Below, one piece after another: positions 5,812 to 57,472 of a DNA stretch of 64,000 bases (within the stretch, counting starts at the first letter, position 1; each line of letters starts with the position of its first letter). A program made the translations under genes and the position numbers. The notes under the pieces are model-generated. The model made no database searches. It worked only from the letters and a program-made list of their open reading frames with translations, and was not told where the DNA came from. Origin of the DNA: an uncultured Chloroflexia bacterium (GTDB lineage: Bacteria; Chloroflexota; Anaerolineae; Anaerolineales; UBA4823); assembly GCA_963725685.1 (NCBI GenBank), contig CAVRYZ010000008.1:398709-462708 (forward strand), written 5' to 3'.

Positions 5812-5850
5812 ATAAAATCACCAGTAATATCTTGATTGCCAATCCAAGCT

Positions 5851-8343: not shown

Positions 8344-8395
8344 TTGACAGGTCTGGGATTTCTTTCTATAATAAGTTGTAATCACAGGATTACAA
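8344..8395 (+). promoter_or_regulatory. Consensus sigma70 promoter (TTGACA-N17-TATAAT) followed by a perfect 8-4-8 palindromic operator
   Basis: TTGACA lies at 8344-8349 and TATAAT at 8367-8372. The palindrome TTGTAATC-ACAG-GATTACAA spans 8376-8395, over the expected transcription start and 23 nt before the GntR start codon. Confidence 0.6.
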
Positions 8396-8417
8396 CAAAT
8401 CTTATTGATCTCAAGGG

Positions 8418-9251: not shown

Positions 9252-9302
9252 TTAAAACGGTTGATAGGATGCATATTGATCTAGGAAATCTTTGGGAAAA
9301 GA

Positions 9303-35300: not shown

Positions 35301-35590
35301 GACGGCATCACCAGGCTGGTAATGGCATACTGGATTGGATTGGTGCCCGCACCGGAGTGGGCAACCCAGAGTCCACCGCTCATTACGGTGAGGTCACCCG
35401 CAACTCCACCATAGTCAAAGTTCTCATCCAGAAGTGGGTCGGCCAACACACCCGATTGGTGGCGCACAGCCGGTAATCCACTGGCTTGAGCCTGACTGGT
35501 GGGCGAAAAAGCGGGCAGGATCAGCATGAGCACCATGATGGCTCGAGCTGATATGCTTAAATAATGACGGTACTTCCCTTGTAAGTGCAT
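29351..35590 (-). CDS. Giant secreted multidomain protein (2079 aa)
   Basis: Domain order, N- to C-terminal:
- N-terminal signal/TM segment IMVLMLILPAFSPTSQAQA.
- Two tandem copies of a 218-aa module.
- DUF11-like repeat (also one near the C-terminus, EVSTPELVIPGSLVTYTIVLSNTG).
- OB-fold-like segment FAIQDETGGLYIYP.
- SbsA-Ig-type domains (PPTVTATNPAE.., PPAIVAVSPLE..).
- PHP motif FGDIHNHTSYSDG...ISDHS...NADTHT.
- CARDB-like domain.
- Second OB-fold-like segment LYVQDETGGITVHAP. Confidence 0.85.
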   Translation of the reverse strand: MHLQGKYRHYLSISARAIMVLMLILPAFSPTSQAQASGLPAVRHQSGVLADPLLDENFDYGGVAGDLTVMSGGLWVAHSGAGTNPIQYAITSLVMPSYVSSGIAGSAVFDLSGEDANRTFAEQTGSVVYYASLVNLSMATTAGDYFIHFKNSTTGFAARLFARDSAGALQFGIGTSSTPTYGTTNFAYNTTYLVVAKHDQVSGASDVFVLDSCSSTEPAPLASATGTPLASILGIAIRQGGATTGPNGTVDGIRVADNWADAATCYVPPPLLDENFSYGGSAGDLTVVSAGNWIAHSGAGTNPVQYAPTSLSMPSYASSGIAGSATFTSLGGEDVNRSFAAQSTGTVYFAALVNLSSATTTGDYFLHIKDTGTSNLRARVYAKNTGGQLNFGLFPSSGTPIYGATNFAFGTTYLVVAKYNINNLDSALYVLDTCSYTEPSIPLVSVSLIGTSVAMSAVAIRQGGATSSPAGTVDGIRVATNWAAAARCVDVPPIAEMTIGKTAPSSVSVNETFDYTLSAVNSLGEPATQVVITDSLPISVTFVSASDGGQLIDTNVISWTIPSMADGTTAIRTITVTAPATEGTLVNDMYGVWASNWITGTLGDPVTTSVIDPDILSTIAEARAGGAGWYGTIRGNVTVLPGSFATRSFAIQDETGGLYIYPPYGTVIPPLSLGDLVQIKGSMSVYHALLELSTIDYINWIDTGTVPAPLVTPTGGLAPTQGRLVQIQGTALSMTGTTNKTILINDGSGETSVYIYGTTGIDTSSFTFPMLMRVTGMSGAYDTPQVNPRFQADIVDLRPPTVTATNPAEAALDVNLYRPLEATFSKAMDPASLTPATFTLVDSVGPVSGVVSYDAGSFTASFTPDVSLSPFTVYTATLTTGVTDVYAIPLSAPYEWSFTTGAADITPPAIVAVSPLEDATEVALTANVVITFTEDMHPLSLDGEHFILEGPFGIVPYHMSYNPANFVVTLNPDAKFLATTLYTATVLGTTADWAGLTLGEDKIWSFETSIEPPMLVYFGDIHNHTSYSDGSGTPDQALAAGAAAGFDFMAISDHSYAIDDTEWANTLAAVEAATNSNFVALRGFEYTQGAEGHINVYNTVRHAVRTNTGCSYCDYTPNLEAGSTVMGFYQWASTTGMIGLDPAGTVMQFNHPGWINFNDWTYHPEVSDIARMEEVGNGNGTSYDFSEDEYIRSLDYGWKVGASNNADTHTAYWGTNTDHRTGVLMSGLTKEALLEALRERRTFATEDKNFSLRMKANGAWMGSEIANSGTIQFEIEGDDPDGELASLVQIITDQGEVAALYEPTNASFTWTPLLDISTGVHYYYVRVTQADSDRIVSSPVWTLGSEDISITDLVIQPTIPTIYNPSLLTVRVTNRNIAPRTVTVSMDVNGVFLSSVEVYAPGNGDATANFSWQPVSVGDAVVTAQLIGAPEGDNPDDNTSLLNLTVTDEHLPLILIDAGHGNMNAQGSEMQMLVNDLSDHQYNVLKNLDELTVTDLNPTVVKLLIITAPQTAYTNAELTAIGDYVAAGGSLWLCGLSDYTGSVPWAATVANRENDILAAIESHTGAQINMRMNDDEILEGNDNNGYVFGPIWGDFPSEYTTTIGINVEAMASWSVNSLRGRTPGTPLTADTPDVHIVVQGDLDTGYSDDSYHNPFHTSNTDADGAGDAYIYNPTWVYPNDPPEPPVGALPVPMAAVTQLPNGAGRILLYGDSNDAFTTYAYTAGDGKQNELFNLEAAMWLMGEPLHLSTIAEARAQTELNQPDNLNKLVWIEGEITAAYGEFFNVLYVQDETGGITVHAPAGDIDPTSYTRGTKVRVVGTIGIYNGDTEIEFFEAEMVQVITPSTGEVAPLPFTTYQASLEENQGWLAVITATVTTKVGEDTLFVDDGSGLVRVFLDGYNGDFADIQVYDLVRVTGLVSEDGDGQRIRVRNHGMHPEYSDDVVKLPQELALGISKEVSTPELVIPGSLVTYTIVLSNTGNGLVLQVTLTDVLPEGINFVAFLEDGGATEDGGTISWTGNLPAGADVTVVFTASVDTDFSLYGETIVNTAHYESSILNGEATAVFTVAAPNKVWLPILRK
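34127..35434 (-). repeat. Tandem duplication of a roughly 218-aa (654-nt) N-terminal module inside the giant gene
   Basis: Copy 1 covers aa 53-270 (LLDENFDYGGVAGDLTVMSGGLWVAHSGAGTNPIQYA...GTVDGIRVADNWADAATC). Copy 2 covers aa 271-488 (LLDENFSYGGSAGDLTVVSAGNWIAHSGAGTNPVQYA...GTVDGIRVATNWAAAARC). The copies are collinear over their full length. Confidence 0.8.
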
Positions 35591-40454: not shown

Positions 40455-41306
40455 TTACAGGAAGCTCTCCAGCAAGGAACCTACTTCCGCCATGGTGAAT
40501 ACAGGTCCGTCCACACAGATCAGCTTGGTGCCAAGGTTGCAGCGCCCGCACTTGCCAATCCCACAGTGCATACGCGCTTCCAGCGTGACGTAATTCTGTT
40601 CAGGCAGGAAGTTAAGCTTTTCCACCAGCACGCGATTGACAAAGTGGATCATGATGGGCGGCCCGCAGGTGATGGTGATCGCATTGCGTGGCGAGGGAGC
40701 CACTTTTTCCAGCAGCTGGGTGATCAGACCCACACTGTGGCTCCAGGTTTCGTCAGCCTGATCAACGGTCAGGTGCAGCTCTGTGTCTGGAGTTGCGCGC
40801 CATTCATCATATTCATCCGTGAAGACCAGCATGGATGGGTTCCTGGCTGCCCAGAGAATTTGAAAATACCCATAATCCCTACGGTTGGCCATCACCGACT
40901 GGATCACCGGGCGCAGGGGGGCACCTCCGATGCCTCCCCCGATCACGATCAGGTTCTTTCCCTTAAACTTATCCATGGGGAAGCCATTTCCCATGGGGCC
41001 GCGAACTCCCACCATGTCTCCCACGCCCAGCTCATGCAGGTCGGTGGTGACTGAACCCAGGCGGTTGATGGCGAAATCGATCGTGGCATCCCCATTCTGT
41101 GGGATATTGGCGATCCCAAATGGGGCTTCACCCACTCCGAAGGCTGAGACGAAAGCAAATTGCCCTGGTTTATAGTCTTGGAAGGCCTTGCCACCGCCAT
41201 TAAGCATCTCGACTCGAAAGAGCTTGATCTCTGTGGCGATATCTTTAACCTCGATGAGTTTTCCGAGGTAAGGCAGCATGGGGTTGGTTTCCAGTTTGTC
41301 TGTCAT
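40455..41306 (-). CDS. FAD/NAD(P)-binding ferredoxin-reductase-type subunit with a C-terminal [2Fe-2S] motif (HydG/AsrB/FlxA-like)
   Basis: 283 aa with a PyrK/sulfhydrogenase-gamma-like fold. Motifs are RLGSVT, LIVIGGGIGGAPL and the C-terminal CGIGKCGRC. Confidence 0.8.
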   Translation of the reverse strand: MTDKLETNPMLPYLGKLIEVKDIATEIKLFRVEMLNGGGKAFQDYKPGQFAFVSAFGVGEAPFGIANIPQNGDATIDFAINRLGSVTTDLHELGVGDMVGVRGPMGNGFPMDKFKGKNLIVIGGGIGGAPLRPVIQSVMANRRDYGYFQILWAARNPSMLVFTDEYDEWRATPDTELHLTVDQADETWSHSVGLITQLLEKVAPSPRNAITITCGPPIMIHFVNRVLVEKLNFLPEQNYVTLEARMHCGIGKCGRCNLGTKLICVDGPVFTMAEVGSLLESFL

Positions 41307-41309: not shown

Positions 41310-42311
41310 TTACCTCCTGCCAACATACCCCAATACTTCGGTGATATCCACATTCACCGGGCAGGCATCGATACAACGTCCGCAGCCTGTACATGATACC
41401 GGACCGTAATGGATGGGGAAATAATAGAACTTGCAGAAGAAACGGTTGCGCAGGCGCTGATTCTTCATAAATCGGGGGTTGTGCCCACCTGCCACCCGCC
41501 GGTATGGGATGCCGTTGCACGAATCCCAGCAGCGGATGCGCTCGGATTGATTTTGCCCATTGCCCCCCGCTAGAACCTCGTCGCGTACATCGAAACAACG
41601 GCAGCTGGGGCAAACATAGGCACAGATCCGGCAGCTCAAACAGCGCTCGGCCATCTCAGCCCAAAAGTCATCATTAAACCTGGCTGGCCATACTTCCTTG
41701 GGAGGAACTTTTAGCTCACGTTTTCTGGCATGGGTGGGATGAGGCCGAATCTCAGACAGTCCATCGAAAATGGGAAACTTCTTGCTGATATTCTCGCCCT
41801 TCTCGGTGATGATCTCTGCCACATAACCGCCGTTGGAGGCAGTTAGCATGATATCCATTCCGGTGGGGTCATCCGGAGAGCCACCCACATTGGTACAAAA
41901 GCAGCTGGCACCCATGGATGGGCATGCCAAACCGATGAGGGTGGTGTTCTCTCGACGGCGCGCATAGTATGGATCCACAGGTTCATTCTCAATGAACAGC
42001 GCGTCCAGGGTGAGCAATCCCCTGGCATCACAAGGGCGGACGCCAAAAATAATCGATTTACCCTCTGGGATGGTTTCAGTTAACTTCACCTGCCCGGCAA
42101 GTTTTTCAATCAGCATCAGGCGCTCGGTAGGTGGGAAGAAAACTTCCTTAACTGACATGAATGAACGTACAAAGTCCCATACCACCTCATGCGTATCAGC
42201 CACCGGGCGGTAAAGGATGTTGCCGGCAATGTCCAATGGGGCGATCAGGGTTTGATCATGCGCCAGGCGGTCAAGCCAGGCCGCCAGCTCCTGGTGAGTC
42301 AGGTAGTTCAT
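41310..42311 (-). CDS. 4Fe-4S dicluster subunit (sulfhydrogenase beta/AsrA/FlxB-like)
   Basis: I trimmed the start to ATG 42311 (MNYLTHQELAAWL), which overlaps the upstream stop as ATGA. Motifs are FGVRPCDARG, CFCTNVGG, CLSCRICAYVCPSCRC and CTGCGRCIDACP. Confidence 0.75.
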   Translation of the reverse strand: MNYLTHQELAAWLDRLAHDQTLIAPLDIAGNILYRPVADTHEVVWDFVRSFMSVKEVFFPPTERLMLIEKLAGQVKLTETIPEGKSIIFGVRPCDARGLLTLDALFIENEPVDPYYARRRENTTLIGLACPSMGASCFCTNVGGSPDDPTGMDIMLTASNGGYVAEIITEKGENISKKFPIFDGLSEIRPHPTHARKRELKVPPKEVWPARFNDDFWAEMAERCLSCRICAYVCPSCRCFDVRDEVLAGGNGQNQSERIRCWDSCNGIPYRRVAGGHNPRFMKNQRLRNRFFCKFYYFPIHYGPVSCTGCGRCIDACPVNVDITEVLGYVGRR

Positions 42312-43726
42312 GGCAGGTTCTCCTCTCCGCCCAGGATGGTCACAAAGGGTGGCGGTACGGCTGCCATCCCGGCCTGGTAGCTGAAAATAGACTCCATCTC
42401 CTGCGCCATCTTGCGGTGGATCAGGCTGAGGGGGAGGTCCATCGGGCAGGCGCGTTCGCACTCATTACAGCCCACACAGCGCCCTGCCAGGTGGTATGCT
42501 CTCCCCAGGTGGAAGGCACGCTTTTCATCCACATCAATTCCCATGCCCACCCAGAGTGAATCGTCGCGCTCATACAGGCAGATGGGGCAATCACACATCG
42601 GGCATGCCTGCCGGCAGGCGTAGCAACGAATGCAGCGGTCGAACTGGCTGAGCCAGAAGTTCATCCTTTCAACAGGTGTGAGGGCATTCAGGCGTTCGAT
42701 CCCGGGGTAAACATGCTCGGGGGGGATTTCGCGATAAGTCGTTTCAGGGTCTCCAATGAGCGTATCGTATACCACCGGTGTACGCACGTTACAGGCTGCG
42801 CAGCGCGTCTGGATCGCTCCACTTTTATCGTTATTGAACCCCGCTCCCTGCCGGATGCCATCGCAGGCCATGCCAATCACATACACCTGCTCACGTAAGA
42901 ACCGATTCTCAGCCAGCAGGACGTTTATGGAACGGCTGTCGCATGGTTTTACTACTACGGCTGCTTTGGGTATGCTATCAGGCTTCTTTTTCTTTCCGCC
43001 ATCCGTTCCCCAGCCCAGTTTTTTACTCAAGTAAGCAGTCAGGTTATGGGTGCAGTCCTTGTTCCAGACCAGGCGTTCAACATTTTCGGGCTGGTGGATA
43101 AATGCGGGGCGTGTCCGTCCCCTGGGCCCCACTTCATAACCGATCACACTCTCCACCTGTTTGTTGGCCAGTAAATCTCGGGCGGCTGATCGCAAAGCCT
43201 CGGTTTGCTGTTCGTGAACGGGTGTGTTATAAACGGCATGCTTGGGCTGTTCATCATTAAAAGCTGAATAACGGTGGCTGATAGGTTCCTGTTCCCACAC
43301 AAAATGCGCCTGGCGCTCGGAAACTTTCCAATGGATAGGTCCGAGAGCACGCACAGTATCGGTAAAATCAGTGGTGATGTGCGAGTAACGCTCCCCTTCC
43401 GAAGCAGACACCCAATCAAGCCGGATGCGTTCAGGTTCAAGGCCGGCATAGGCCAGCAAGGCGCGCAAGATAGGCAGACGCTTGGCTGCCCGGTGGTTGC
43501 CGGTATTGTAATGGCACTCGCCGATATGGCAACCCAATACCAGCACACCGTCCGCCCCCTGCTCGAAGGTGCGCATGATCAGCTCGGGTGAAACCCGCCC
43601 TGAGCATGGCACACGGATGTCGCGGATATTAGCCGGAGATTTCAAGCGGGCGATGCCAGCGGTATCGGCACCGGTGTAACTGCACCAGGTGCACAGATAA
43701 GCAATGATCTTGGGTTCAAATGGCAT
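42308..43726 (-). CDS. MvhD-like (hydrogenase delta/FlxD-like) domain fused to an Fe-S cluster domain
   Basis: 472 aa. The N-terminal roughly 135 aa read IIAYLCTWCSYTGADTAG...VPCSGRV...GADGVLVLGCHIGECHY, an MvhD pattern. The C-terminal part has CIRCYACRQACPMCDC and CVGCNECERACP clusters. A strong Shine-Dalgarno (TAGGAGGTGG) is present. Confidence 0.8.
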   Translation of the reverse strand: MPFEPKIIAYLCTWCSYTGADTAGIARLKSPANIRDIRVPCSGRVSPELIMRTFEQGADGVLVLGCHIGECHYNTGNHRAAKRLPILRALLAYAGLEPERIRLDWVSASEGERYSHITTDFTDTVRALGPIHWKVSERQAHFVWEQEPISHRYSAFNDEQPKHAVYNTPVHEQQTEALRSAARDLLANKQVESVIGYEVGPRGRTRPAFIHQPENVERLVWNKDCTHNLTAYLSKKLGWGTDGGKKKKPDSIPKAAVVVKPCDSRSINVLLAENRFLREQVYVIGMACDGIRQGAGFNNDKSGAIQTRCAACNVRTPVVYDTLIGDPETTYREIPPEHVYPGIERLNALTPVERMNFWLSQFDRCIRCYACRQACPMCDCPICLYERDDSLWVGMGIDVDEKRAFHLGRAYHLAGRCVGCNECERACPMDLPLSLIHRKMAQEMESIFSYQAGMAAVPPPFVTILGGEENLP

Positions 43727-43737: not shown

Positions 43738-46700
43738 CTATGGGTTCAGGATCCCGGGAACAACCGGTTCAGCCGCCAATGCCCCGATCATCTCATTGAC
43801 GATTTGTTGATCATCGAAATGAATGAGGGTAATGGCTTTATCACGGCAGGTTGAGGCGCAGGTACCGCAACCTTTACACAGGTATGTATTGACTGAAGCC
43901 ACGCTTTCTTTCAGTTCGATGGCGCTGTATGGGCAGGCATTGACACACAAGCCACAGCCGGCACAACGCTGCAGGTTCACTGAGGCAACCGATGGATCCA
44001 GGGCAATCGTACCCTGATCGAGCAGAGACAGGGCGGCGGCGGCTGCGCCACCTGCCTGAGCCACGCTGTCTGGGATATCCTTCGGGCTCTGGCAGGCGCC
44101 AGCGACATAAATGCCCTCGGTGGTAGTTTCCACAGGAGCTAGCTTGGGATGTTTCTCGAGGAAGAACCCATCCGGGCTGCGGCTGATCCCGAATATGTGA
44201 GCCACCTGGGCAGCATCCGCCTGCGCCTCCAGACCTGTGGATAGGATAACCATATCCACTTCGACGTGGTCCGGCTGACCATGAAAGGCTTCGTCCCATT
44301 TCACAACGAGATGCCCATCCTGAGCCTGGATACTTCTGACATGCCCGTGGTAGAAATTAACCCCTCTTGCACGGGTGCGGTTATAAAACTCTTCGTAGTC
44401 TTTACCGAAGGAGCGCATATCGCGGTAGATTTCATGTACTTCAGCGCCCACATATTCGTGCACCAGCTGCGCCAGTTTGAGAGAGTACATGCAGCATGCC
44501 CGTGAACAATACTCGTTATATTTGTCGTCCCGGCTGCCCACACAGTGCACAATAGCAACCCGCCTGGGTGGCTGGCCATTTTTAAGGGTGACCCTTCCAA
44601 GGGTCGGTCCACCAATATTGATCAGACGCTCAAATTCCATCGAGCTAAGCACATTATCCAGCTGACCATACCCCAGCTCAGGAATGCGGGATGGGTCAAA
44701 ATCTTTGAAACCTGTTGCCAGCACGATTGTGCCTACCTTGAGATCCAGATAGCTATCCTTCATATCATGGTTGATGGCACCGCGTTCACACGCAGACAGG
44801 CATTCCAGGCATTCGGAACAGATACCACAACGCAAACAGCGCTCGGCTTCGGTAATTGCCTCTTCTTCTGTAAATGCCAGATCGACTTCATTGAAGTTGT
44901 TTTCCCGCGCTTTCGCTGGAATGGTGCGGGTCTTGGTACGGGCATTGTCCGTTGCCCAGCCAATTTCCATCTTTTCCGCCACTTCTTCCTTGGTAAAAGT
45001 GGCGATGGGCAGCTTGGGTGGTTCCTGAACTCCTTCAACCCCACGCAGGAAGCGATCGATGCACCTAGCCACATGATGACCTTCTCCGATGGCGTCCACG
45101 ACGAAGAATGTGGTCCCGCGGCGAACGTCACCTGCCACGAACACACCTGGCATGCTGGACATCATTTCATCATCGGTTTCGATACCCATTGAGCTGAGCT
45201 TGCGGATGCGAGTATCGGCAGGCAGGAATGTGAAATCTGGCTGCTGACCGACGGCCCAAATGACCAGGTCACATGGAATTACATGTTCAGTGCCGGGGAT
45301 TTCTTCCACCTGGCGTTTGCCATTGACGATCGCGCCGACCTTGGCTTCCACGCAACGAATCCCAACGATTTGATTTAACTGGATGACAACCTCTTTGAAC
45401 ACCCGGTTGCGGATGATTTCAACCCCCTCTTTGACAGCCTCATCCATCTCGTTGAATGACGCGCGCATACCACGACACACAATTTTCACCTTGGGGCTGC
45501 CCAGTCGAATGGACACGCGGGCAGCATCGAGGGCCACGTCTCCAGCCCCGATCACTGCGATTTCGCGACCACTCAAGTTGAGCTTTTCTCCCAGGCAAGC
45601 CCGGCGAAGCAGGTCAAGGCTGAGCCAGTTATCGGGATGCTCTGTTCCCGGAATGCTCAGCTTCCAGGCACTATGAGCACCTGTGGCAATAATCACCGCT
45701 TCATAACCCTGGTCAAACAGCCCGGGGATATCGTCCACGCGCGTGCTCAGGCGCATTTCCACGCCTTCATCGACAATTTGCTGAATCTCCCAATCCAGGC
45801 GGTCATAGGGCAGGCGGTGAGGTGGAATTCCGACCCGCATCATGCCCCCGGCAATGGGAAGAGAGTCAAAAACTGTGGCACTGTAACCGAAGCGCACCAG
45901 ATCCAAAGCTGCGGTCATGCCAGCCGGACCAGCCCCGATGATGGCTACTTTCTTACCGGTGGGGATGGGAGCGTGTGAAAATGGAGTGCCCACCAGTGAT
46001 TTATCGCGCATGTTGGGCAGCTCGTCACGGTGAGCAAAAGCCCAATCGGCGACGAACCACTTCAACTTCATGATGCTGACGGGTTCATCATATAACCCCC
46101 GACTGCATTGTTCCTCACAGCGACGGTTGCACACCCGCCCGCAAACCGAGGGGAATGGATGCTCGCGCCGGATAGCCCAATAGGCATCGGCATATCGCTT
46201 TTGCTTGATCAGGGCGATATATCCCTGGGCACGCTGGTCGGTGGGGCAGGCAGCCCGGCAGGGTGCGATGCCACGTTTTTCGATTACATATGCCCCGGGA
46301 ACTGACTGAGCTGAATTGCGGTAGATGGCTTTGCGGGTGCTTAACCCCCGGTCAAAGGTGTTAATCACATCCACCGGGCAGACGTCGGCGCACTTTCCGC
46401 AACCTGTGCATTGCGATTCATCCACAAAACGGGCCTTCCTGCGTACTCGCACCTGGTAATTGCCAACATACCCGGATACATTCTCAACTTCACTGTAGGT
46501 GAGCAGGCTGATGTTTTCGTGACGTCCAACGGACGTCGTTTTGGGGGTAAGTATTCAAGCCGCACAGTCTAGCGTGGGAAAGGTCTTGTAGAGCTGGGCC
46601 ATATGCCCGCCGATACTTGGCTCACGCTCCACCATATAGACCTTCTTGCCTGCATCTGCCAGGCGCAGGGCAGCCTCGATCCCGGCAATACCGCCGCCCA

Positions 46701-47148
46701 GCACTAATGCTGATTGTTCCATATCAACCGTGCGCATGTTCAGCGGGCGGTGATGGTGCACCCGGCTGACCGCTGCGCTGACCATGTGTTTGGCTTTTTC
46801 GGTTGCCAGGGCAGGATCGTCCACCACCCATGAGCAGTGCTCACGAATGTTGGCCATCTGGAAGAAGAATGGATTCAACCCACCTTCTTTACAAGCCCTG
46901 CGAAAGGTAGGCTCATGCATCAATGGCGTGCATGAGGCCACTACCACGCGGTTCAATCCCTGCTCGCGGATATCCTGCTTGATCAAGTCTTGACCAGGGT
47001 CGGAGCACATATAGGTGTAATCGCGTGCCAGAACAACATTTTCCAAATTTCGGGCATACTCCACCACGGCAGTTACATCCACCTTGGCAGCGATATTGGT
47101 ACCGCAGTGACATATGTAGACCCCGGTCTTTATTTTGGAGAGGTTCAT
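43738..47148 (-). CDS. hdrA: HdrA-like flavoprotein (1136 codons) with an in-frame TGA (candidate Sec198) and an inserted NfnB/GltD-like NAD(P)H-binding module
   Basis: Track ORFs 46555..47148 and 43738..46452 share one frame (102-nt gap, no other stop). The read-through is ...KTFPTLDCAA-TGA(46557..46555)-ILTPKTTSVGRHENISLLTYSEVENVSGYVGNYQVRVRRKARFVDESQCTGCGKC.... The insert at about 45040-46272 carries the GltD-type Cys motifs and two dinucleotide loops (IIGAGPAGMTAA, VIGAGDVALDAA). Confidence 0.8.
46521..46537 (-). promoter_or_regulatory. Candidate SECIS-like hairpin downstream of the HdrA(1136) TGA
   Basis: The reverse strand reads GACGUCC-guu-GGACGUC. The perfect 7-bp stem starts 18 nt after the UGA, with a GUU apical loop. 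Confidence 0.5.
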
Positions 47149-49169
47149 GCCACCTCCTCTTCAAGCAACACGGGCTTTTTCAAAACCGACATGATTCCAA
47201 CGATTTCTGCCAGGATTTGATCCTGGGTAAAGCCATTCTGGATCGGTGCATGCACCAGGCAAGCGGCCACGCAGGCACCGCAACCTTTGCATAACACCTC
47301 GTTCACGTGTGCCACGATATGCCCTTCTAACTCCACCATATCGATCGCATGGTATGGGCATTGGCTCTCACAGGTACGGCATCCACAGCATATGGTTTGG
47401 TCAATATAGGTGGTGAAAGGTTCCAGGGTGACGTGCCCGGCATCCATAAGCGAAAGGGCTGCCGCGGCGGCTGCGGCACCTTGGGCTACGCTATCAGGAA
47501 TATCTTTGGGACTCTGGCAGGTGCCTGCCAGGTAGACGCCGTCGGTGGTCGTTTCCACCGGAGCCAGCTTGGGATGTTTTTCTAGGAAAAAGCCATCTGG
47601 ACCGCGGCTGATGCTGAAGGTTTGCGCCACATGGGCCGCATCCGGTTGGGGTTCTATCCCTGTGCTCAGCACAACCATATCCACCAGCTGCTCGTTGGGT
47701 TCACCTGTGAACAGGTCGGTTGAGGTGATTTTTAGCTGTCCATTATCTGGTGTGACCTGTAAACCACTCCCACCGGCTTCCTGGTCAAAGCGGGTGAAGT
47801 GCACCCCTGACCGTGCCACACGCTCGTAAAAAGCTTCGTAGCCTTTACCAAAGGCGCGCATATCGCGGTAATACTCGTGTACTTCTGCGCCCACATAATC
47901 GCATATCAACTGTGCCAGCTTGAGCGAGTACATGCAGCACACCCGTGAGCAATATTCGTGATACTCTTTGTTCCGGCTGCCAACACAGTGTACGATAGCA
48001 ACCCTTTCCGGTTTACGGCCGTCCTTGAGCCGTACCTCCCCGGTGGTGGGCCCACCGGTGTTGATCAAACGCTCCAATTCCATGCTGGTGAGCACATTAT
48101 CCAGCTCACCATAACCGTATTGTTGAATCCGGCGGGCTTCAAAATCCTTGAACCCCGTCGCCAGGATGATTGCTCCAACTTCCAGGTCAAGATGCTCTTC
48201 CTGCTGCTCGAAATTTATTGATCCGGTCTGGCAGAACTTTTCACACGCCCGGCATTTGCCCTTTTGGAAATAGGCACAATTTTGGGTGTCTATGACCGGA
48301 ACACGCGGCACGGCCTGTGCGAACGGGAAATATATCGCCGAGCGATTACCCAATCCCAAATCGAACTCGGATGGGATCTTTTTCCAAGGGCATTTTTCAA
48401 CGCAGGTACCGCATCCTGTGCAGGTGCTCTCGTCCACGTAGCGTGGTTTTCGGCGCACTTTTACGGTGAAATTGCCTACATATCCGGAAACGGATTCGAC
48501 CTCGCTGTAGCTCAGCAGGGTGATGTTTTCGTGGCGTCCAACGGACACCATTTTGGGGGTGAGAATTCAGGCCGCACAGTCGAGGGTAGGAAAGGTCTTA
48601 TAAAGTTGGGTCATATGCCCGCCGATGCTCGGCTGCCTCTCCACCAGGTAAACATGCTTGCCGGTGTCAGCCAGGCGCAGGGCGGCCTCAATCCCGGCAA
48701 TACCCGCACCCACCACCATGGCGCTTTGTTTCATCTCCACCTGGCGGGCTTCCAGCGGCTTTTGGTATTGCACCCGCCTGACAGCGGCAGACAGGAGGGC
48801 TTTAGCTTTGTGGGTCGCGCTGGGCATGTCTTCCGACACCCATGAGCACTGCTCGCGGATGTTGGTCATATGGAATAAAAATGGATTTAACCCCGCATCA
48901 GCACAAGCTCGCCGGAAGGTGGCTTCATGCATCAAAGGCGAACAAGAAGCCACTACAATACGATCCAGGCCCTCATTACGGATATCATCCTTGATGAGAG
49001 CCTGGCCAGGGTCGGAACACATATAAGCATAATGGCGGGCAACCAACACATTCTCCAATGAGGCGGCATGGTTGGTCACGGCTTCAACATCCACCATCGA
49101 GGCGATATTGGTGCCGCAATGGCAGATATAAACCCCGATCTTGGGGCTGCCTTTATTGGTTGGTTTCAT
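47145..49169 (-). CDS. hdrA: Heterodisulfide reductase subunit A-like flavoprotein (674 aa) with an in-frame TGA (candidate Sec201)
   Basis: Track ORFs 48567..49169 and 47145..48551 share one frame (15-nt gap). The read-through is ...KTFPTLDCAA-TGA(48569..48567)-ILTPKMVSVGRHENITLLSYSEVESVSGYVGNF.... The N-terminal Cys domain, FAD loop VVGAGIAGIEAAL and ferredoxin motifs are intact. The stop overlaps the next hdrA start as ATGA. Confidence 0.85.
48533..48549 (-). promoter_or_regulatory. Candidate SECIS-like hairpin downstream of the HdrA(674) TGA
   Basis: The reverse strand reads GGUGUCC-guu-GGACGCC. The 7-bp stem includes one G-U pair. Position and loop are the same as in the paralog, with compensatory base changes. 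Confidence 0.5.
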
Positions 49170-54044: not shown

Positions 54045-54758
54045 TTAATCCACTCTTCCGGTTGCAATGGCCGCCTTTACTTCACCAATCGCCTGGGTAA
54101 CTTCAATCTCACGCGGGCAACACTCGGTGCAGTTGAAGACCGTATGACAACGGTACACCCCAAACTGGTCGTTTAAGATGCGCAATCGATCCGCTGCAGC
54201 CCTATCGCGGCTATCAAATATGAAGCGGTGGGCAGCCACTATGGCAGCGGGTCCGACGTATTGGTCGCTCGCCCAAAATATGGGGCAAGATGTGGTGCAG
54301 CAGGCGCACAGGATGCACTTGGTGGTATCGTCAAAGCGCTCGCGCTCATCAATACTTTGCAGGCGTTCCGTTGGCGGTGGGGTTTCATCATTGATGAAAT
54401 ATGGTTTGACCGACTTGAAATGGGCAAAGAACTGCTCCATGTCTACGATAAGGTCTTTTATCAGACGTAAGCCCAACAAAGGCTCGACGGTGATCTTGTC
54501 GGTGTGGAAGTCCTTCAGCAATGCCTTGCAGGCCAGGTAATTCCGGCCATTAATTCGCATGGCATCAGAACCGCAAACGCCATGCGCGCAGGACCGCCGG
54601 AAGGATAGTGTGCCGTCAAAAGAGCCTTTGATGTATTCCAACATATCCAGGACGCGATCCGTGGGCTGAGCTTCCATCTTATACGTTTCGTAATGAGGCT
54701 TCTTATCTTTTTCAGGATTAAAACGGAAGACTTTGACTGTTACTTGCATGGCTGCCAC
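54045..54758 (-). CDS. sdhB: Succinate dehydrogenase/fumarate reductase iron-sulfur subunit
   Basis: 237 aa. The 2Fe-2S motif is SCAHGVCGSDAMRINGRNYLAC. The 4Fe-4S/3Fe-4S motifs are CILCACCTTSCP and CHTVFNCTECCP. Confidence 0.9.
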   Translation of the reverse strand: MAAMQVTVKVFRFNPEKDKKPHYETYKMEAQPTDRVLDMLEYIKGSFDGTLSFRRSCAHGVCGSDAMRINGRNYLACKALLKDFHTDKITVEPLLGLRLIKDLIVDMEQFFAHFKSVKPYFINDETPPPTERLQSIDERERFDDTTKCILCACCTTSCPIFWASDQYVGPAAIVAAHRFIFDSRDRAAADRLRILNDQFGVYRCHTVFNCTECCPREIEVTQAIGEVKAAIATGRVD

Positions 54759-54763
54759 CTCGT

Positions 54764-56575
54764 TTAATAAACTCGTTCCTTAGGCTGGAATTTTGTAAGC
54801 ACGACTGGTTTGTAACCCAGCTCGATCTGACCATCGGACTTTACCCATGAGAGCGTGTGCTTTAACCAATTGACGTCGTCACGTTTTGGATAATCATCCC
54901 GGGCATGTGCCCCACGGCTCTCAGTGCGAGCCAGTGCACAGACTGTGACAACCTCAGCAATTTCGAGCAGGTTGCCCAGCTCCCAGATATTGATCATTTC
55001 CGTGTTGAAGATATTCCCCTGGTCGTGTAATGGGATGTGCTTGTAGCGCTCGCGCAACTCACGCACCGTCTCCAGGGCTGATTGCATCCCCTCGCCGGTA
55101 CGGAACATGCCCACGCTATCCATCATCACGGCTTTCATCTTGCCGCTGACTTCCAGGATTTTCTCGTTACCCTGGGCATTGCGAATGGCATCGATTTGTG
55201 CCCGGGTAAATTCGGTCGGGTCAGCTGGCAGAGGTTGAAAAGCTGCACCCTGGGAGAATTCGGCTGCACGCAGCCCGGAGTGCTTGCCAAATACGATCAG
55301 ATCAAGCAGCGAATTGGTGCCAAGCCGGTTGGCTCCATGGACGGAAACGCAAGCCACTTCACCGGCGGCATATAAGCCCGGCATGACGGTGTTATTAGAA
55401 TCGATTACCACTTCACCGAACTTGTTCGTCGGAATGCCACCCATCGTATAGTGAGCCGTTGGCTGTACCGGCATCGGCTGAGCCACCGGGTCTACTCCTA
55501 AATAAGTGCGGGCAAAATCCACGATATCGGGCAGCTTGGCGATGATTTCCTCACCCGTCAGGATATATGGAGTTCCATCCAGACGTTTACGCCCATCCAG
55601 GGCGGCATACTTGTTTACCGTCTCGGGTCTGACGTCTAAATACAGGTAATTCTGTCCATTGATCCCGTTACCGGCTTTTATCTCCAGATACATAGCCCGG
55701 CTGATCACGTCGCGGGAGGCCAGGTCTTTCACACGGGGAGCATACCTTTCCATGAATCGTTCGCCCTTGCCGTTGATCAGCACCCCTCCCTCTCCGCGCA
55801 CACCCTCGGTGATCAGGATACCCAGCTTATAGATCCCCGTGGGGTGGAATTGGAAGAATTCCATATCTTCCATCGGTATGCCGTGCCGCATGGTGACGGC
55901 AATTCCATCACCCGTGTAGGCATAGGCGTTGGAGGTGATATCCCACACCCGTCCATGCCCGCCGGTGGCGAGAATGACTGACTTGGCGTGGAAGACGTGC
56001 AGCTCGGAGGTGCCGAGTTCAATCGCCACCACACCTGCGGTAACCCCATTGACTACCAGCAGGTCCACCACCTGGAATTCATCGTAAAAATTGACATTAT
56101 TCTTCAGACATTGCTGGTACAGCGTTTGCAGGATCATGTGACCGGTGCGGTCTGCTGCGTAGCATGCCCGTCTGACGGGTTTTCCAGTCACATTATTGGT
56201 ATGCCCACCAAATGGACGTTGGGCAATCTTGCCTTCTTTTGTGCGTGAAAAGGGTAATCCATAATGCTCGAGCTCATATACTGCCTGTACGGCTTCATAG
56301 CACATGAACTCAATGGCATCCTGATCGCCTAAATAGTCGCTGCCTTTGACTGTGTCAAAAGTGTGCCATTCCCAATGGTCCTCTTCATCGTTACCCAGGG
56401 CTGCACCCACCCCGCCTTGAGCGGTGCCGGTATGTGAACGGGTTGGGTACAGCTTGCTGATCACAGCCGTGTTGGCGGTCTTCGAAGCGTACAGGGCTGC
56501 CATCAAGCCAGCGCCGCCCGCTCCGACTACAATTACCTCAAATTGATGTATTTTCATAATGTCAGGGCTCCTCAC
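54764..56575 (-). CDS. sdhA: Succinate dehydrogenase/fumarate reductase flavoprotein subunit
   Basis: 603 aa with VIVVGAGGAGLMAA, the covalent-FAD His region RSHTGTAQGG, HPTG and the C-terminal RTESRGAHARDD. The start may be M7 (56557). Confidence 0.9.
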   Translation of the reverse strand: MRSPDIMKIHQFEVIVVGAGGAGLMAALYASKTANTAVISKLYPTRSHTGTAQGGVGAALGNDEEDHWEWHTFDTVKGSDYLGDQDAIEFMCYEAVQAVYELEHYGLPFSRTKEGKIAQRPFGGHTNNVTGKPVRRACYAADRTGHMILQTLYQQCLKNNVNFYDEFQVVDLLVVNGVTAGVVAIELGTSELHVFHAKSVILATGGHGRVWDITSNAYAYTGDGIAVTMRHGIPMEDMEFFQFHPTGIYKLGILITEGVRGEGGVLINGKGERFMERYAPRVKDLASRDVISRAMYLEIKAGNGINGQNYLYLDVRPETVNKYAALDGRKRLDGTPYILTGEEIIAKLPDIVDFARTYLGVDPVAQPMPVQPTAHYTMGGIPTNKFGEVVIDSNNTVMPGLYAAGEVACVSVHGANRLGTNSLLDLIVFGKHSGLRAAEFSQGAAFQPLPADPTEFTRAQIDAIRNAQGNEKILEVSGKMKAVMMDSVGMFRTGEGMQSALETVRELRERYKHIPLHDQGNIFNTEMINIWELGNLLEIAEVVTVCALARTESRGAHARDDYPKRDDVNWLKHTLSWVKSDGQIELGYKPVVLTKFQPKERVY

Positions 56576-56589
56576 ATCCTGTAATCGCT

Positions 56590-57018
56590 TTAATACGCAG
56601 ATCCAATAATTACGTATATACCGACAATTACCATTCCCAACCAGAGCAGTGCGATGAGCGCTCTGAGGAATGGCTGCCAGAACGTGTGACCGACATAATC
56701 CTCAACGATCATGCGAATCCCGTTGGCTGCGTGGGTGAAGGCAAAAAATACGATCAGGTATTGCATGATCTGCCAGAAAGCGGTAGCCCATCCCAGGGTA
56801 ACGTCGGGGATATTGCTGTTAATCACGTGATTGGGGTTGGGTAAAAATGTCCACCTTAAGACTGTGGGCAGGTCCATCTGCAAGCGCGCACCCATCGCCA
56901 TGGCTGAGCCGAGGCCGATCAATGCCAGCAGGATGATTCCCAAACCGGAGATGCGGGTAAATAACCACATTATATAATCCAAATTTATGCCACGTTGTGG
57001 AATGTAACGAGGTCGCAT
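56590..57018 (-). CDS. sdhD: Succinate dehydrogenase hydrophobic membrane anchor subunit
   Basis: 142 aa with 3 predicted TM helices, positioned between sdhC and sdhA. Called from position and hydrophobicity. Confidence 0.6.
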   Translation of the reverse strand: MRPRYIPQRGINLDYIMWLFTRISGLGIILLALIGLGSAMAMGARLQMDLPTVLRWTFLPNPNHVINSNIPDVTLGWATAFWQIMQYLIVFFAFTHAANGIRMIVEDYVGHTFWQPFLRALIALLWLGMVIVGIYVIIGSAY

Positions 57019-57037
57019 ATCTCTCTCTCCTCAGCTT

Positions 57038-57472
57038 TTACCCGGCCTGTAAGGCGCGAGTTACAATCACATATACAGTCAGCACATAGATTGGGGTAAA
57101 TACCGCCCATAGCAGGTAAACCGCTTCGCGTTCATATTTGAGCATCTTAGGCCAAATGTCGAGGATGGCAACGCGGAATCCATTTAATGTGTGGAAAAGC
57201 ACACAAAAGACAACAATGATTTGGAACCACCACGATTCGTAGATCGTATTGATGGTTGTCCCCCAGGTGCCCAACACCTGTTGCATGGAAAATGAGGCTG
57301 CAACGTGAACACCGACGAAAAGAATAATCCCCATGGCGGTGAGGCGATGGAGCGCAAATGCGTAGTAAGGAGTGCTCCCTTTATATAGCCAGCCTTTAAA
57401 ACCGGTGTATTTACCGTATGCCATGTGCTCCTCCTTTAATCGTGTAAAAGTACCGAAAAATGGATCTCTCAA
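57038..57472 (-). CDS. sdhC: Succinate dehydrogenase cytochrome b subunit
   Basis: 144 aa with 3 TM helices and conserved His residues (HRLTA, HTLNGFR). It is the first gene of the sdh operon. The start may be M17 (57424). Confidence 0.6.
   Translation of the reverse strand: MRDPFFGTFTRLKEEHMAYGKYTGFKGWLYKGSTPYYAFALHRLTAMGIILFVGVHVAASFSMQQVLGTWGTTINTIYESWWFQIIVVFCVLFHTLNGFRVAILDIWPKMLKYEREAVYLLWAVFTPIYVLTVYVIVTRALQAG

What the first reader, a model, noticed from the sequence alone, without database searches (positions are those of the whole stretch)
45040..46272. HdrA with an NfnB/GltD-like NAD(P)H:FAD module inserted into its ferredoxin domain
- The 1136-codon HdrA-like protein has a roughly 410-aa insertion right after the first CxxCxxCxxxCP cluster.
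- The insertion carries the Cys pattern of the glutamate synthase small subunit/NfnB family (CRAACP..., SVCGRVCNRRCEEQC).
- It also carries two dinucleotide-binding loops (KVAIIGAGPAGMTAALDL and EIAVIGAGDVALDAARV).
- After the insertion the canonical HdrA sequence resumes (ERCLRCGICSEC..., LATGFKDFDP..., IVHCVGSRD...).
- One polypeptide would thus join a pyridine-nucleotide entry site to the flavin/Fe-S core that performs electron bifurcation in Hdr complexes.
- I cannot tell from memory whether this exact architecture has been characterised.
Basis: partly seen in the sequence, partly recalled or inferred. Interest (0 to 1): 0.7.

Follow-up and report, generated by a model that had tools for sequence, protein, structure and literature searches.

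The report
Selenoprotein HdrA with built-in NAD(P)H module
This is a real gene for an HdrA electron-bifurcating flavoprotein that carries a glutamate-synthase-like NAD(P)H-binding module spliced into one of its iron-sulfur domains. This architecture has already been described from genomes (as HdrL, or type III HdrA), but I found no biochemical test of it.

Summary
Window 43738..47148 (- strand) encodes a 1136-residue HdrA-family protein. Residues about 296-778 are a GltD/NfnB-type module (FAD, NAD(P)H site, two [4Fe-4S] clusters) spliced into the second cluster motif of HdrA's inserted ferredoxin domain.

- Codon 198 is an in-frame TGA, read as selenocysteine. Orthologues have Cys there and a conserved hairpin follows the TGA. 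The upstream paralogue hdrA has the same feature.
- The insert is about 480 aa, not 410. It is circularly permuted relative to NfnB/GltD.
- Its closest solved relatives are the non-bifurcating NADPH-input domains of Bfu-type NfnA (9BOV) and StnC (8OH5). It shares their Lys cluster ligand where NfnB has Glu.

The gene sits in a conserved operon: hdrA, hdrL, an MvhD/Fe-S fusion, a HydB-like gene and a HydG-like gene. There is no hdrBC in the window.

The architecture is published from genome analysis:
- HdrL, 2009.
- The ANME-1 HdrA-NfnB fusion, 2022.
- Type III HdrA, 2025.

It occurs in at least 10 named lineages among the loci fetched here, and I found no biochemical characterisation.

Most likely function: a hard-wired pyridine-nucleotide port on an HdrA/HdrL bifurcating core. 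The overall reaction may be an Nfn/Stn-like NADPH:NAD+/ferredoxin transhydrogenase, which is inferred, at about 0.3. It is a new member of a known kind and of moderate interest.

The parts
43738..47148 (-). hdrL (type III HdrA): 1136 codons plus a stop, with Sec at codon 198.
   Evidence: Translation. HdrA matches in PDB and NCBIfam on both flanks. Full-length orthologues P0011 and P0026.
46555..46557 (-). In-frame TGA, read as selenocysteine (motif FPTLDCAA-U-ILTP). It is equivalent to Sec197 of Methanococcus maripaludis HdrA.
   Evidence: Sequence. Orthologues have Cys at this position. Across the fetched loci the position is 79 Cys codons against 21 TGA. The Cys-Sec197 pair near FAD is described in PMC13518236.
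46521..46537 (-). SECIS-like hairpin (GACGUCC-GUU-GGACGUC), 20 nt downstream of the TGA.
   Evidence: Fold energy -11 kcal/mol, z = -2.4. A hairpin at the same offset follows nearly all of the 21 TGA sites, with stems that differ between lineages; L060, L074 and L078 fold differently.
44815..46263 (-). Inserted GltD/NfnL-like module, aa about 296-778.
   Evidence: BLASTP against the neighbouring HdrA. HdrA aa 1-295 aligns to HdrL 1-295, and HdrA 305-661 aligns to HdrL 779-1125. PDB, Pfam and Foldseek matches.
46030..46266 (-). Fe-S part of the module (Fer4_20, profile positions 30-111). It holds C297, C301, C336, C340, C344, C348 and K363, the Lys cluster ligand of StnC and NfnA(Bfu).
45079..45954 (-). 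FAD Rossmann motif (GAGPAG, aa 405-410) and NAD(P)H Rossmann motif (GAGDVA, aa 534-539), followed by the atypical VCRGMR in place of YRR..EMPA.
   Evidence: Pfam Pyr_redox_2 at aa 399-690. Motif comparison.
44827..44946 (-). Permuted N-terminal GltD/NfnB segment (RENNFNEVDLAFTEEEAITEAERCLRC, aa about 735-774), lying after the flavin domains.
   Evidence: NfnB residues 3-42 align here while NfnB 46-461 aligns to aa 296-703. A re-permuted construct restores the full Fer4_20 match, profile 1-111 at 104.5 bits against 85.5 bits.
47145..49169 (-). Canonical hdrA paralogue (674 aa). It also has an in-frame TGA (48567-48569) and a hairpin (48532-48550). Its stop overlaps the hdrL start in ATGA.
42308..43726 (-). 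MvhD ([2Fe-2S]) fused to an Fe-S protein with an FdhB-like C-terminal 2x[4Fe-4S] region.
   Evidence: Pfam FlpD at aa 7-129. PDB 5odc_D at E 2e-45, and FdhB C-terminus at E about 1e-19.
41310..42311 (-). Fe-S protein like sulfhydrogenase beta, AsrA or FlxB (333 aa from the ATG at 42311).
   Evidence: Pfam Fer4_22. NCBIfam ShyB, HydB and AsrA. PDB 9nez_B at E 5e-43.
40455..41306 (-). NAD(P)H/FAD/[2Fe-2S] protein like sulfhydrogenase gamma, AsrB or FlxA. This is the second pyridine-nucleotide site of the operon.
   Evidence: Pfam NAD_binding_1 plus DHODB_Fe-S_bind. PDB 9nez_C at E 3e-48, against NfnA/NfnS at only E 1e-13.

Best explanation
The gene encodes a selenocysteine-containing HdrL (type III HdrA). 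It is a complete HdrA: N-terminal Fe-S domain, thioredoxin-reductase-like FAD domain with the Cys/Sec pair and the E356/K409 equivalents, inserted ferredoxin domain and C-terminal ferredoxin domain.

Into the loop of the second [4Fe-4S] motif of the inserted ferredoxin domain, a circularly permuted GltD/NfnL-type module has been spliced. The module carries FAD, an NAD(P)H Rossmann site and two [4Fe-4S] clusters, one predicted to be ligated by three Cys and one Lys.

By analogy with its closest solved relatives (the NfnL-like domain of Bfu-type NfnA, and StnC), the module is a non-bifurcating pyridine-nucleotide port. It passes electrons one at a time through its two clusters into, or out of, the inserted-ferredoxin-domain clusters. 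From there they reach the HdrA FAD, which is the bifurcating centre.

HdrL is co-translated with a canonical HdrA, which I infer to be its heterodimer partner and which keeps a free ferredoxin-reducing domain. Three more proteins follow: an MvhD-Fe-S fusion, a HydB-like Fe-S protein and a HydG-like NAD(P)H/FAD/[2Fe-2S] protein. Together these form a FlxABCD-like second nucleotide port.

No HdrBC thiol/disulfide module is encoded in the window. The most likely overall reaction is therefore a ferredoxin-coupled transhydrogenation between the two pyridine-nucleotide sites, a functional analogue of Nfn and Stn. This last step is inference only, at about 0.3. The 'hard-wired NAD(P)H port on an HdrA core' part is well supported.
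For: Architecture of the protein:
- Pfam, NCBIfam and PDB domain mapping on the window's own sequence.
- Insertion borders from alignment with the adjacent HdrA.
- The FAD-stabilising residues E356 and K409 are conserved, as MEFERLIN and CCMYSLKLA (using the criterion in PMC12054007).
- All 17 Cys of the HdrA Fd motifs and of the module are invariant in 14 homologues at 37-84% identity.

Nature of the module:
- Best solved matches are 9bov_A (E 2e-75, colinear over aa 268-783), 9n5u_A and 8oh5_C. All score better than NfnB 4ylf_B at E 8e-56.
- Foldseek on an AF2 model of orthologue P0011 gives the same ranking. The insert has pLDDT about 75-95.
- The Lys at the StnC K170 / NfnA K170 ligand position is present. 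NfnB has Glu there.
- The permuted order is confirmed by the re-permutation test.
- In both StnC and NfnA(Bfu) this domain is the non-bifurcating NADPH input (PMC10482914, PMC11829005).

Selenocysteine:
-.

Operon and context:
- The five genes have overlapping or abutting boundaries.
- The same five-gene order occurs in L001-L004, L009, L026, L056, L065 and L066, and with a class II HdrL in L036.
- No ORF with a double CCG motif is found in the 64-kb window or in those loci, except L056.
- The inserted Fd domain is the low-potential, ferredoxin-side arm in canonical HdrA (PMC13518236).
Against: - No biochemical data exist for any HdrL or type III HdrA.
- Nucleotide specificity is unclear. This clade has VCRGMR plus a 4-residue deletion where most relatives have the NADPH-type YRR..EMPA, and other paralogues have an acidic CLE, which is NADH-like.
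- In canonical HdrA the inserted Fd domain is the low-potential exit. Wiring NAD(P)H (about -320 mV) there needs re-tuned cluster potentials or a different flow scheme.
- Many relatives in other phyla have an hdrB-like gene directly upstream of hdrL. A disulfide-type acceptor encoded elsewhere in this genome therefore cannot be excluded.
- Heterodimerisation of HdrA with HdrL is inferred from gene order only.
- The AF2 model is of an orthologue. It has low overall confidence (mean pLDDT 63) and no coordinates were available, so cluster-to-cluster distances were not measured.
Confidence: 0.55

Rival explanations
1. The insert is a true NfnB equivalent whose own FAD bifurcates. The operon's PyrK-family protein (HydG-like) would play NfnA, giving one polypeptide two bifurcation sites. 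This is the idea raised for the ANME-1 HdrA-NfnB fusions.
For: There is clear homology to NfnB/NfnL: 4ylf_B at E 8e-56, and 5jca_L with TMt 0.75. The conserved Arg of GIPxxRLP is present. A PyrK/NfnA-family protein is in the operon. The proposal appears in PMC9012536.
Against: - The cluster ligand is Lys, as in non-bifurcating StnC and NfnA(Bfu), not the Glu of NfnB.
- Scores are better against the non-bifurcating relatives, which also share the permuted topology.
- The PyrK-family protein is far closer to sulfhydrogenase gamma (E 3e-48) than to NfnA/NfnS (E 1e-13). It is paired with HydB-like and MvhD proteins, which is a Flx-type arrangement.
Confidence: 0.1
2. It is the A subunit of an NAD(P)H-dependent, ferredoxin-reducing disulfide reductase (HdrABC or DsrC type) whose HdrBC module is encoded elsewhere in the genome. 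NAD(P)H would be the mid-potential donor, as hypothesised for type III HdrA and for HdrABC/HdrL.
For: An hdrB-like ORF with two CCG motifs lies immediately upstream of hdrL in L005-L008, L010, L014, L016 and L058, and close by in L056. The Syntrophobacter HdrABC/HdrL cluster is abundant under sulfate reduction (PMC5947623). The hypothesis is set out in PMC12054007.
Against: No CCG-type ORF occurs in the 64-kb window. None occurs within about 7 kb in the loci that share the window-type operon, with L056 the only exception. In that operon a canonical hdrA and a Flx-like NAD(P)H module occupy the neighbouring positions instead.
Confidence: 0.2
3. It is an artefact: an assembly chimera of an hdrA gene and a gltD/nfnB gene, or a pseudogene broken by a stop codon.
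For: A mechanical ORF call splits the gene at the TGA.
Against: - The same architecture with the same junctions appears in thousands of database proteins and in about 60 independent genome loci.
- There is no GC or skew break.
- The junction Cys residues are invariant.
- The TGA aligns with Cys in orthologues and is followed by a hairpin that is conserved in position but differs in stem sequence between lineages.
Confidence: 0.01

Closest known systems
HdrL of Desulfobacterota (Desulfobacterium autotrophicum HdrL1-3; Syntrophobacter fumaroxidans Sfum_0824)
   Same: HdrL is described as a heterodisulfide reductase/glutamate synthase fusion with NADH-binding site(s). Some copies are selenoproteins, and the gene is always followed by mvhD (PMC2702500, PMC5947623). 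Desulfobacterota loci fetched here (L011, L013, L016, L017, L028) have the same N-part, insert and C-part order.
   Different: The published HdrL genes sit next to dsrABC or hdrABC. Here the neighbours are a canonical hdrA and a HydB/HydG-like NAD(P)H module, with no hdrBC in the window. I did not align directly to the named D. autotrophicum or S. fumaroxidans proteins.
Type III HdrA / HdrA-NfnB fusions of ANME-1 and Bathyarchaeia (HdrA9-11)
   Same: A GltD/NfnB-like domain interrupts the inserted ferredoxin domain, and the K409/E356 equivalents are kept (PMC9012536, PMC12054007).
   Different: Those are archaeal, rare (nine sequences in that survey) and associated with hdrBC or mvhADG. Their NAD(P)H motif was reported as GXGXXG. 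Here the motif is GAGDVA (GXGXXA) followed by the atypical CRGMR.
NfnL-like domain of Bfu-type NfnA (C. saccharolyticus 9BOV, T. sibiricus 9N5U) and GltD-like domain of StnC (S. ovata 8OH5)
   Same: - They are the best sequence and fold matches.
- The order is the same permuted one: CxxxCP, then the flavin domains, then the RNNF..RCLxC segment.
- The first cluster after FAD has a Lys ligand.
- The module is inserted into a larger Fe-S host protein and serves as a non-bifurcating NADPH input.
   Different: The host there is a NuoG/Fdh-like protein feeding an FMN-based HydBC-type bifurcation site. Here the host is HdrA with its own FAD. HdrL keeps a fourth Cys (C336), as NfnB does.
NfnB/NfnL of NfnAB (T. 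maritima 4YLF, P. furiosus 5JCA) and GltD
   Same: The fold and cofactor set are shared: FAD, an NAD(P)H site and two [4Fe-4S] clusters. E values are 1e-56 to 1e-38.
   Different: The order is not permuted. The proximal cluster has a Glu ligand. In NfnB the FAD itself bifurcates and docks NfnA.
FlxABCD-HdrABC (Desulfovibrio vulgaris; Ramos et al. 2015, cited in PMC5861303)
   Same: The operon combines an HdrA-type protein with an MvhD homologue (FlxD), HydB-like Fe-S proteins (FlxB/C) and a HydG-like NAD(P)H/FAD/[2Fe-2S] protein (FlxA). The correspondence to Flx subunits rests on my knowledge of that paper, not on a direct alignment.
   Different: There is no HdrBC here. There are two HdrA-type genes, one of which carries its own nucleotide module.

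Membership tests
HdrA (heterodisulfide reductase subunit A family) | N-terminal domain, thioredoxin-reductase-like FAD domain and C-terminal ferredoxin domain, all homologous to solved HdrA. | tested here: met
   PDB phmmer gives 8rvu_a, 5odc_A and 7bkb_A at E 1e-181 to 1e-207, in two stretches (aa 5-291 and 776-1125). NCBIfam gives HdrA and HdrA2 below the equivalog cut-off because of the insert.
HdrA (heterodisulfide reductase subunit A family) | FAD N5-stabilising residues E356 and K409 (M. thermolithotrophicus numbering), proposed as the mark of bifurcating HdrA. | tested here: met
   The alignment to 5odc_A pairs LELE356RMIN with MEFERLIN and CCMYAMK409 with CCMYSLK. The criterion comes from PMC12054007.
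HdrA (heterodisulfide reductase subunit A family) | Cys-x2-Cys/Sec pair next to FAD (Sec197 in Methanococcus). | tested here: met
   The motif is DC195AAU198 with TGA. C195 and C198 are invariant in homologues.
HdrL / type III HdrA | A GltD/NfnB-like FAD/NAD(P)H domain inserted within the inserted ferredoxin domain, between its two [4Fe-4S] motifs. | tested here: met
   Fd motif 1 is at aa 247-258 and the insert at aa 296-778. The CxxCxxCxxxC of motif 2 is at aa 777-787.
HdrL / type III HdrA | An mvhD homologue encoded directly downstream. | tested here: met
   FlpD/MvhD lies at 42308-43726, 12 nt after the hdrL stop. The same holds in most related loci.
GltD/NfnB family (Fer4_20 + Pyr_redox_2) | An Fe-S domain with ligands for two [4Fe-4S] clusters, plus FAD and NAD(P)H Rossmann folds. 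| tested here: met
   Pfam scores are 76.8 and 163 bits. Eight Cys plus one Lys are conserved. The order is circularly permuted.
Bifurcating NfnB of NfnAB | A Glu ligand of the FAD-proximal [4Fe-4S] cluster, and a dedicated NfnA ([2Fe-2S] plus a-FAD) partner. | tested here: not met
   The ligand position is Lys (KLK363WFVAD) against Glu in 4ylf_B (RLERFVADWA). The only PyrK-family protein in the operon is HydG-like, at E 3e-48, against 1e-13 to NfnA/NfnS.
Non-bifurcating NADPH-input domain of StnC / Bfu-type NfnA | A cluster ligated by three Cys and one Lys next to FAD, and the permuted order with the RNNF..RCLxC segment after the flavin domains. | tested here: met
   The host protein differs: HdrA rather than NuoG/Fdh-like.
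Non-bifurcating NADPH-input domain of StnC / Bfu-type NfnA | NADPH specificity (the YRR..EMPA 2'-phosphate site). | tested here: inconclusive
   GxGxxA is kept, but YRR is replaced by CRG-MR with a 4-residue deletion in this clade. Other HdrLs have YRR or the acidic CLE.
FlxABCD-HdrABC | FlxA-like NAD(P)H flavoprotein, FlxB/C Fe-S proteins and FlxD (MvhD). | tested here: met
   This rests on homology to the sulfhydrogenase gamma and beta subunits and to MvhD. The correspondence to Flx subunits comes from prior knowledge, not from a direct alignment.
FlxABCD-HdrABC | HdrB (two CCG domains) and HdrC encoded with hdrA. | tested here: not met
   No ORF in the 64-kb window has two CCG...CxxC motifs. 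The rest of the genome was not available.
Bacterial selenoprotein | An in-frame UGA aligned with Cys in orthologues, plus a SECIS hairpin just downstream. | tested here: met
Bacterial selenoprotein | selA/selB/selD and tRNA-Sec present in the genome. | not testable with these tools
   The only tRNA in the window is tRNA-Arg. The genome outside the window was not available.

The most novel reading that the evidence does not exclude
The five-gene operon (HdrA, HdrL, MvhD-FeS, HydB-like, HydG-like; no HdrBC) encodes a third, HdrA-based type of ferredoxin-dependent NADH/NADPH transhydrogenase. It would be functionally analogous to NfnAB and StnABC but bifurcate at an HdrA-type FAD. The spliced-in GltD-like module would be one nucleotide port and the Flx-like module the other. 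That would make it an Hdr complex with no disulfide substrate at all.
Probability: 0.25. Interest if true: 0.7.

Novelty: new member of a known kind. Interest (0 to 1): 0.4.

Why it matters
HdrA-type flavoproteins are one of the four known solutions to flavin-based electron bifurcation. How they are coupled to donors other than H2, formate and F420H2 is poorly understood.

HdrL / type III HdrA proteins are widespread: they occur in at least 10 named lineages among the loci fetched here, and in thousands of metagenomic proteins. I found no paper reporting purification or assay of one.

The Chloroflexota operon in this window is a clean case. It contains two pyridine-nucleotide modules, two HdrA flavins and no HdrBC. 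It could show whether an Hdr core can run a disulfide-free reaction such as transhydrogenation.

The finding also shows that the same permuted, Lys-ligated GltD module has been spliced into three unrelated Fe-S hosts: StnC, NfnA(Bfu) and HdrA. That is a clear example of modular evolution in anaerobic energy metabolism. In addition, gene callers systematically truncate these selenoproteins at the UGA.

Tried and rejected
- **Assembly chimera or pseudogene.** Rejected on the composition profile, conserved junctions and Sec/Cys homology.
- **Insert as a straightforward NfnB copy.** Rejected in favour of the StnC/NfnA(Bfu)-type permuted module.
I used orthologue P0026 instead.
- **The search for related loci with the 14-sequence alignment.** Failed for lack of a conserved stretch. 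A 6-sequence alignment worked.
- **AF2.** It could only be run on orthologue P0011 with a shallow MSA. The N-terminal 290 residues were poorly modelled (pLDDT below 50) and no coordinates are exposed. I therefore could not measure cluster distances or judge whether the ferredoxin site is occluded.
- **Promoter and terminator scan.** Nothing above background.
- **Rfam.** No SECIS family hit, only a chance P11 match.
- **Papers not held.** Appel et al. 2021 (BBA) and Pereira et al. 2011 were unavailable.
- **Nucleotide specificity from motifs.** Inconclusive.
Full report
**1. What is in the sequence**

On the minus strand, window 43738..47148 reads as 1136 sense codons plus a stop. A mechanical ORF list splits it into 197 aa (46555..47148) and 904 aa (43738..46452), because codon 198 is TGA.

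Domain mapping gives a consistent picture:
- Pfam maps Fer4_20, the Fe-S domain of GltD/DPD/NfnB, to aa 295-373 and Pyr_redox_2 to aa 399-690. FAD-Rossmann and Fer4 hits of the HdrA type lie on both sides.
- Against the PDB, the flanks (aa 5-291 and 776-1125) match solved HdrA subunits at E 1e-181 to 1e-207.
- The middle matches GltD-family modules at E 1e-75 to 1e-29.

GC content and skew show no break across the gene.

**2. Insertion borders**

The gene immediately upstream (47145..49169, also minus strand) is a canonical 674-aa HdrA. BLASTP of the two proteins gives:
- HdrA 1-295 aligned to HdrL 1-295, at 66% identity.
- HdrA 305-661 aligned to HdrL 779-1125, at 56% identity.

HdrL residues about 296-778 (window 44815-46263, about 480 aa) therefore replace a 9-residue loop of HdrA. 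That loop lies between the first Cys and the CxxCxxxC of the second [4Fe-4S] motif of the inserted ferredoxin domain.

**3. Selenocysteine**

The TGA sits in FPTLDCAA-TGA-ILTP. Several observations support selenocysteine:
- Full-length orthologues P0011 and P0026 (73% and 70% identity) have Cys at this position, as DCAACIL.
- Most database homologues are called at about 930 aa, starting just after this position. That is the signature of a UGA that gene callers treat as a stop.
- Across the HdrA and HdrL genes in the fetched loci, the position is TGC/TGT 79 times and TGA 21 times.
- Nearly every TGA is followed, about 19-24 nt downstream, by a 7-9 bp hairpin. The stem sequence differs between lineages.
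- The upstream hdrA has the same TGA (48567-48569) and hairpin, including an A-U to G-C compensatory change relative to hdrL.

The position corresponds to Sec197 of the M. maripaludis HdrA Cys-Sec pair next to FAD (PMC13518236). No tRNA-Sec lies in the window.

**4. Nature of the inserted module**

phmmer against the PDB ranks the solved relatives as follows:

| Chain | Protein | E-value | Note |
|---|---|---|---|
| 9bov_A | NfnA of the Bfu-type NfnABC of C. saccharolyticus | 2e-75 | colinear over aa 268-783 |
| 9n5u_A | T. sibiricus NfnA | 4e-70 | |
| 8oh5_C | StnC | 2e-62 | |
| 4ylf_B | NfnB | 8e-56 | |
| 5jca_L | NfnL | 1e-52 | |
| 6s6s_G | GltD | 4e-39 | |

An AF2 model of orthologue P0011 has a mean pLDDT of 63. 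The insert is confident (75-95) but the N-terminal 290 residues are poor, because only two MSA rows cover them. Foldseek on that model gives the same ranking: 9bov_A with 498 columns at rmsd 3.6 Å, and 5jca_L with TMt 0.75.

Two features tie the insert to the StnC/NfnA(Bfu) subgroup rather than to NfnB.

(a) Circular permutation.
- NfnB residues 3-42 (RNFxEV...EAxRCLQC) align to HdrL aa about 735-774, after the flavin domains.
- NfnB residues 46-461 align to HdrL aa 296-703.
- Pfam Fer4_20 matches only profile positions 30-111 in the native order.
- Re-joining aa 729-775 in front of aa 294-703 in silico restores a full 1-111 match, and the score rises from 85.5 to 104.5 bits.
- StnC and NfnA(Bfu) have the same order.

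(b) Cluster ligand.
- The FAD-proximal cluster in StnC and NfnA(Bfu) is ligated by three Cys and Lys170. Bifurcating NfnB has Glu at this position (PMC10482914, PMC11829005).
- HdrL has Lys (MKLK363WFVAD). The Lys is present in 11 of 14 diverse homologues.

In both solved systems this domain is a non-bifurcating NADPH input that feeds electrons singly into an Fe-S chain.

All Cys needed for two clusters in the module are invariant in homologues at 37-84% identity: C297, C301, C340, C344, C348, C771 and C774. The same holds for the two clusters of the inserted Fd domain: C247/250/253/257 and C777/780/783/787.

**5. The HdrA part looks catalytically competent**

The equivalents of E356 and K409 are conserved. 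These are the proposed hallmarks of bifurcating HdrA (PMC12054007; alignment). The Cys/Sec pair is conserved as well.

**6. Nucleotide specificity is open**

The second Rossmann motif is GAGDVA (GxGxxA, the NADPH-type fingerprint). The following YRR..EMPA of most relatives is replaced here by VCRGMR with a 4-residue deletion. Other HdrLs carry an acidic CLE (NADH-like). These include paralogues in the same operon of close relatives (L065, L002).

**7. Genomic context**

Five tightly packed genes lie on the minus strand:
- hdrA (Sec).
- hdrL (Sec).
- A 472-aa fusion of MvhD (5odc_D, E 2e-45) with an Fe-S protein whose C-terminus resembles FdhB.
- A homologue of the sulfhydrogenase beta subunit / AsrA (9nez_B, E 5e-43).
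- A homologue of the sulfhydrogenase gamma subunit / AsrB (9nez_C, E 3e-48; NAD_binding_1 plus DHODB_Fe-S_bind).

The last three genes correspond to what is known as FlxD/C, FlxB and FlxA. That correspondence rests on prior knowledge of Ramos et al. 2015, not on a direct alignment.

The order is conserved in Anaerolineales and other Chloroflexota MAGs (L001-L004, L056, L065, L066), in Dehalococcoidia (L009, and L036 with a class II HdrL) and in a Hadarchaeota MAG (L026). L065 is the closest, at about 90% aa identity. No ORF with two CCG...CxxC motifs (HdrB-like) occurs in the 64-kb window, nor near those loci except L056.

In many other lineages an hdrB-like ORF lies directly upstream of hdrL: L005-L008, L010, L014, L016 and L058. 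Canonical hdrA followed by the same MvhD/HydB/HydG trio, without the insert, also exists (L061, L062, L064, L079, L082).

**8. Distribution**

A full scan of 1.84 billion cluster representatives with P0026 found 5547 proteins at E < 1e-30. The top 150 include dozens of distinct 50%-identity clusters that align contiguously through the insert.

The genome scan shows two forms:
- The same roughly 1130-aa architecture in Chloroflexota, Desulfobacterota, Bacillota-labelled MAGs, Aminicenantes, Acidobacteriota (Vicinamibacteria), WOR-3, Acetothermia, Actinomycetota, Hadarchaeota and other archaea.
- A roughly 1500-aa form in many more phyla. It consists of an N-truncated unit with the insert, followed by a second HdrA unit.

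**9. Prior knowledge**

[quoted passage not shown] It has an NADH site, is partly Sec-containing, and is followed by mvhD (PMC2702500).
- It was detected in Syntrophobacter proteomes (PMC5947623).
- Chadwick et al. [quoted passage not shown] It modelled the protein and proposed that the insert blocks the ferredoxin site and feeds NADH electrons to the FAD (PMC12054007).

I found no paper reporting purification or assay.

**10. Mechanism**

Shown:
- The architecture, cofactor-ligand conservation, Sec and the operon.
- The relationship of the insert to non-bifurcating NADPH-input modules.

Inferred:
- The module is a hard-wired NAD(P)H port. Its two clusters connect to the two clusters of the inserted Fd domain and from there to the HdrA FAD.
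- HdrA and HdrL form a heterodimer. Solved HdrA is dimeric, and the two genes overlap in ATGA.
- Ferredoxin binds the free inserted Fd domain of the HdrA partner.
- The MvhD/HydB/HydG proteins form a second NAD(P)H port.

With two nucleotide ports, a ferredoxin port and no disulfide module, the simplest overall reaction is ferredoxin-coupled transhydrogenation, as in Nfn and Stn. All three closest solved relatives of the insert belong to enzymes that catalyse exactly this reaction. I put this at about 0.25-0.3.

The main rival, at about 0.2, is an NAD(P)H-dependent disulfide reductase whose HdrBC is encoded elsewhere. A second bifurcation at the insert FAD is less likely, at about 0.1, because of the Lys ligand and the lack of an NfnA-type partner.

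**11. Verdict**

The architecture is already known from comparative genomics but not characterised biochemically.

Added here:
- Sec recoding.
- The true borders of the insert.
- The permuted, Lys-ligated StnC/NfnA(Bfu)-type nature of the module.
- An HdrBC-less operon that is conserved in Chloroflexota.

It is a new member of a known kind, with interest 0.4.

Noticed in passing
window 47145-49169 (-); TGA at 48567-48569; hairpin at 48532-48550: The upstream canonical hdrA is also a selenoprotein candidate, with the same FPTLDCAA-TGA-ILTP motif and a SECIS-like hairpin. Gene callers would split both genes.
   Followed up: yes
L002/L003 at 1772-5206 and 7392-10805; L065 at 3547-6945 and 7001-10408: Close relatives carry two tandem hdrL copies plus hdrA. 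The copies differ at the NAD(P)H-discriminating site: CLE (acidic) against CRGMR or FRK. This hints at paralogues with different nucleotide preference in one operon.
   Followed up: partly
L019, L021, L023, L025, L027, L029-L054, L057, L059 (for example L032 7001-11473): A roughly 1500-aa form is found in many phyla. An N-terminally truncated HdrA unit carrying the GltD-like insert is followed in the same reading direction by a second HdrA-like unit. Whether the two units are one fused protein or two adjacent genes was not checked locus by locus.
   Followed up: partly
window 43738-47148, aa 288-805: The NCBIfam subfamily NF009410 (PRK12771, 'NAD(P)-binding protein', a 566-position profile) matches aa 288-805 at 450 bits. 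That span is the insert plus the second Fd motif and the first HdrA strand. Stand-alone proteins with this permuted layout may exist and could be the evolutionary source of the insert.
   Followed up: no
window 41310-42461 (-): The longest ORF of the HydB-like gene starts at a GTG 50 codons upstream and overlaps the preceding gene by about 150 nt. Homologues (334-360 aa) and the Pfam and PDB matches fit a start at the ATG at 42311.
   Followed up: partly
window 42308-43726 (-), aa about 135-350: The middle roughly 215 residues of the MvhD-Fe-S fusion protein have no Pfam or PDB sequence match. The region is conserved in related operons at 52-58% identity.
   Followed up: no
window 29351-35590 (-): A very large ORF of 2079 aa begins with a signal-peptide-like N-terminus. 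It was not analysed.
   Followed up: no
window 54045-57472 (-): Four consecutive ORFs look, by eye, like a succinate dehydrogenase/fumarate reductase operon: an FAD subunit of 603 aa, an Fe-S subunit of 237 aa and two small membrane proteins. No search was run to verify this.
   Followed up: no
L061, L062, L064, L079, L082: Canonical hdrA (no insert) occurs next to the same MvhD-FeS, HydB-like and HydG-like trio in Dehalococcoidales, Bacillota and Thermodesulfobacteriota MAGs. In L079 and L082 the trio is directly downstream on the same strand. In L061, L062 and L064 it is on the opposite strand. The Flx-like module is therefore the older partner and hdrL an addition.
   Followed up: partly
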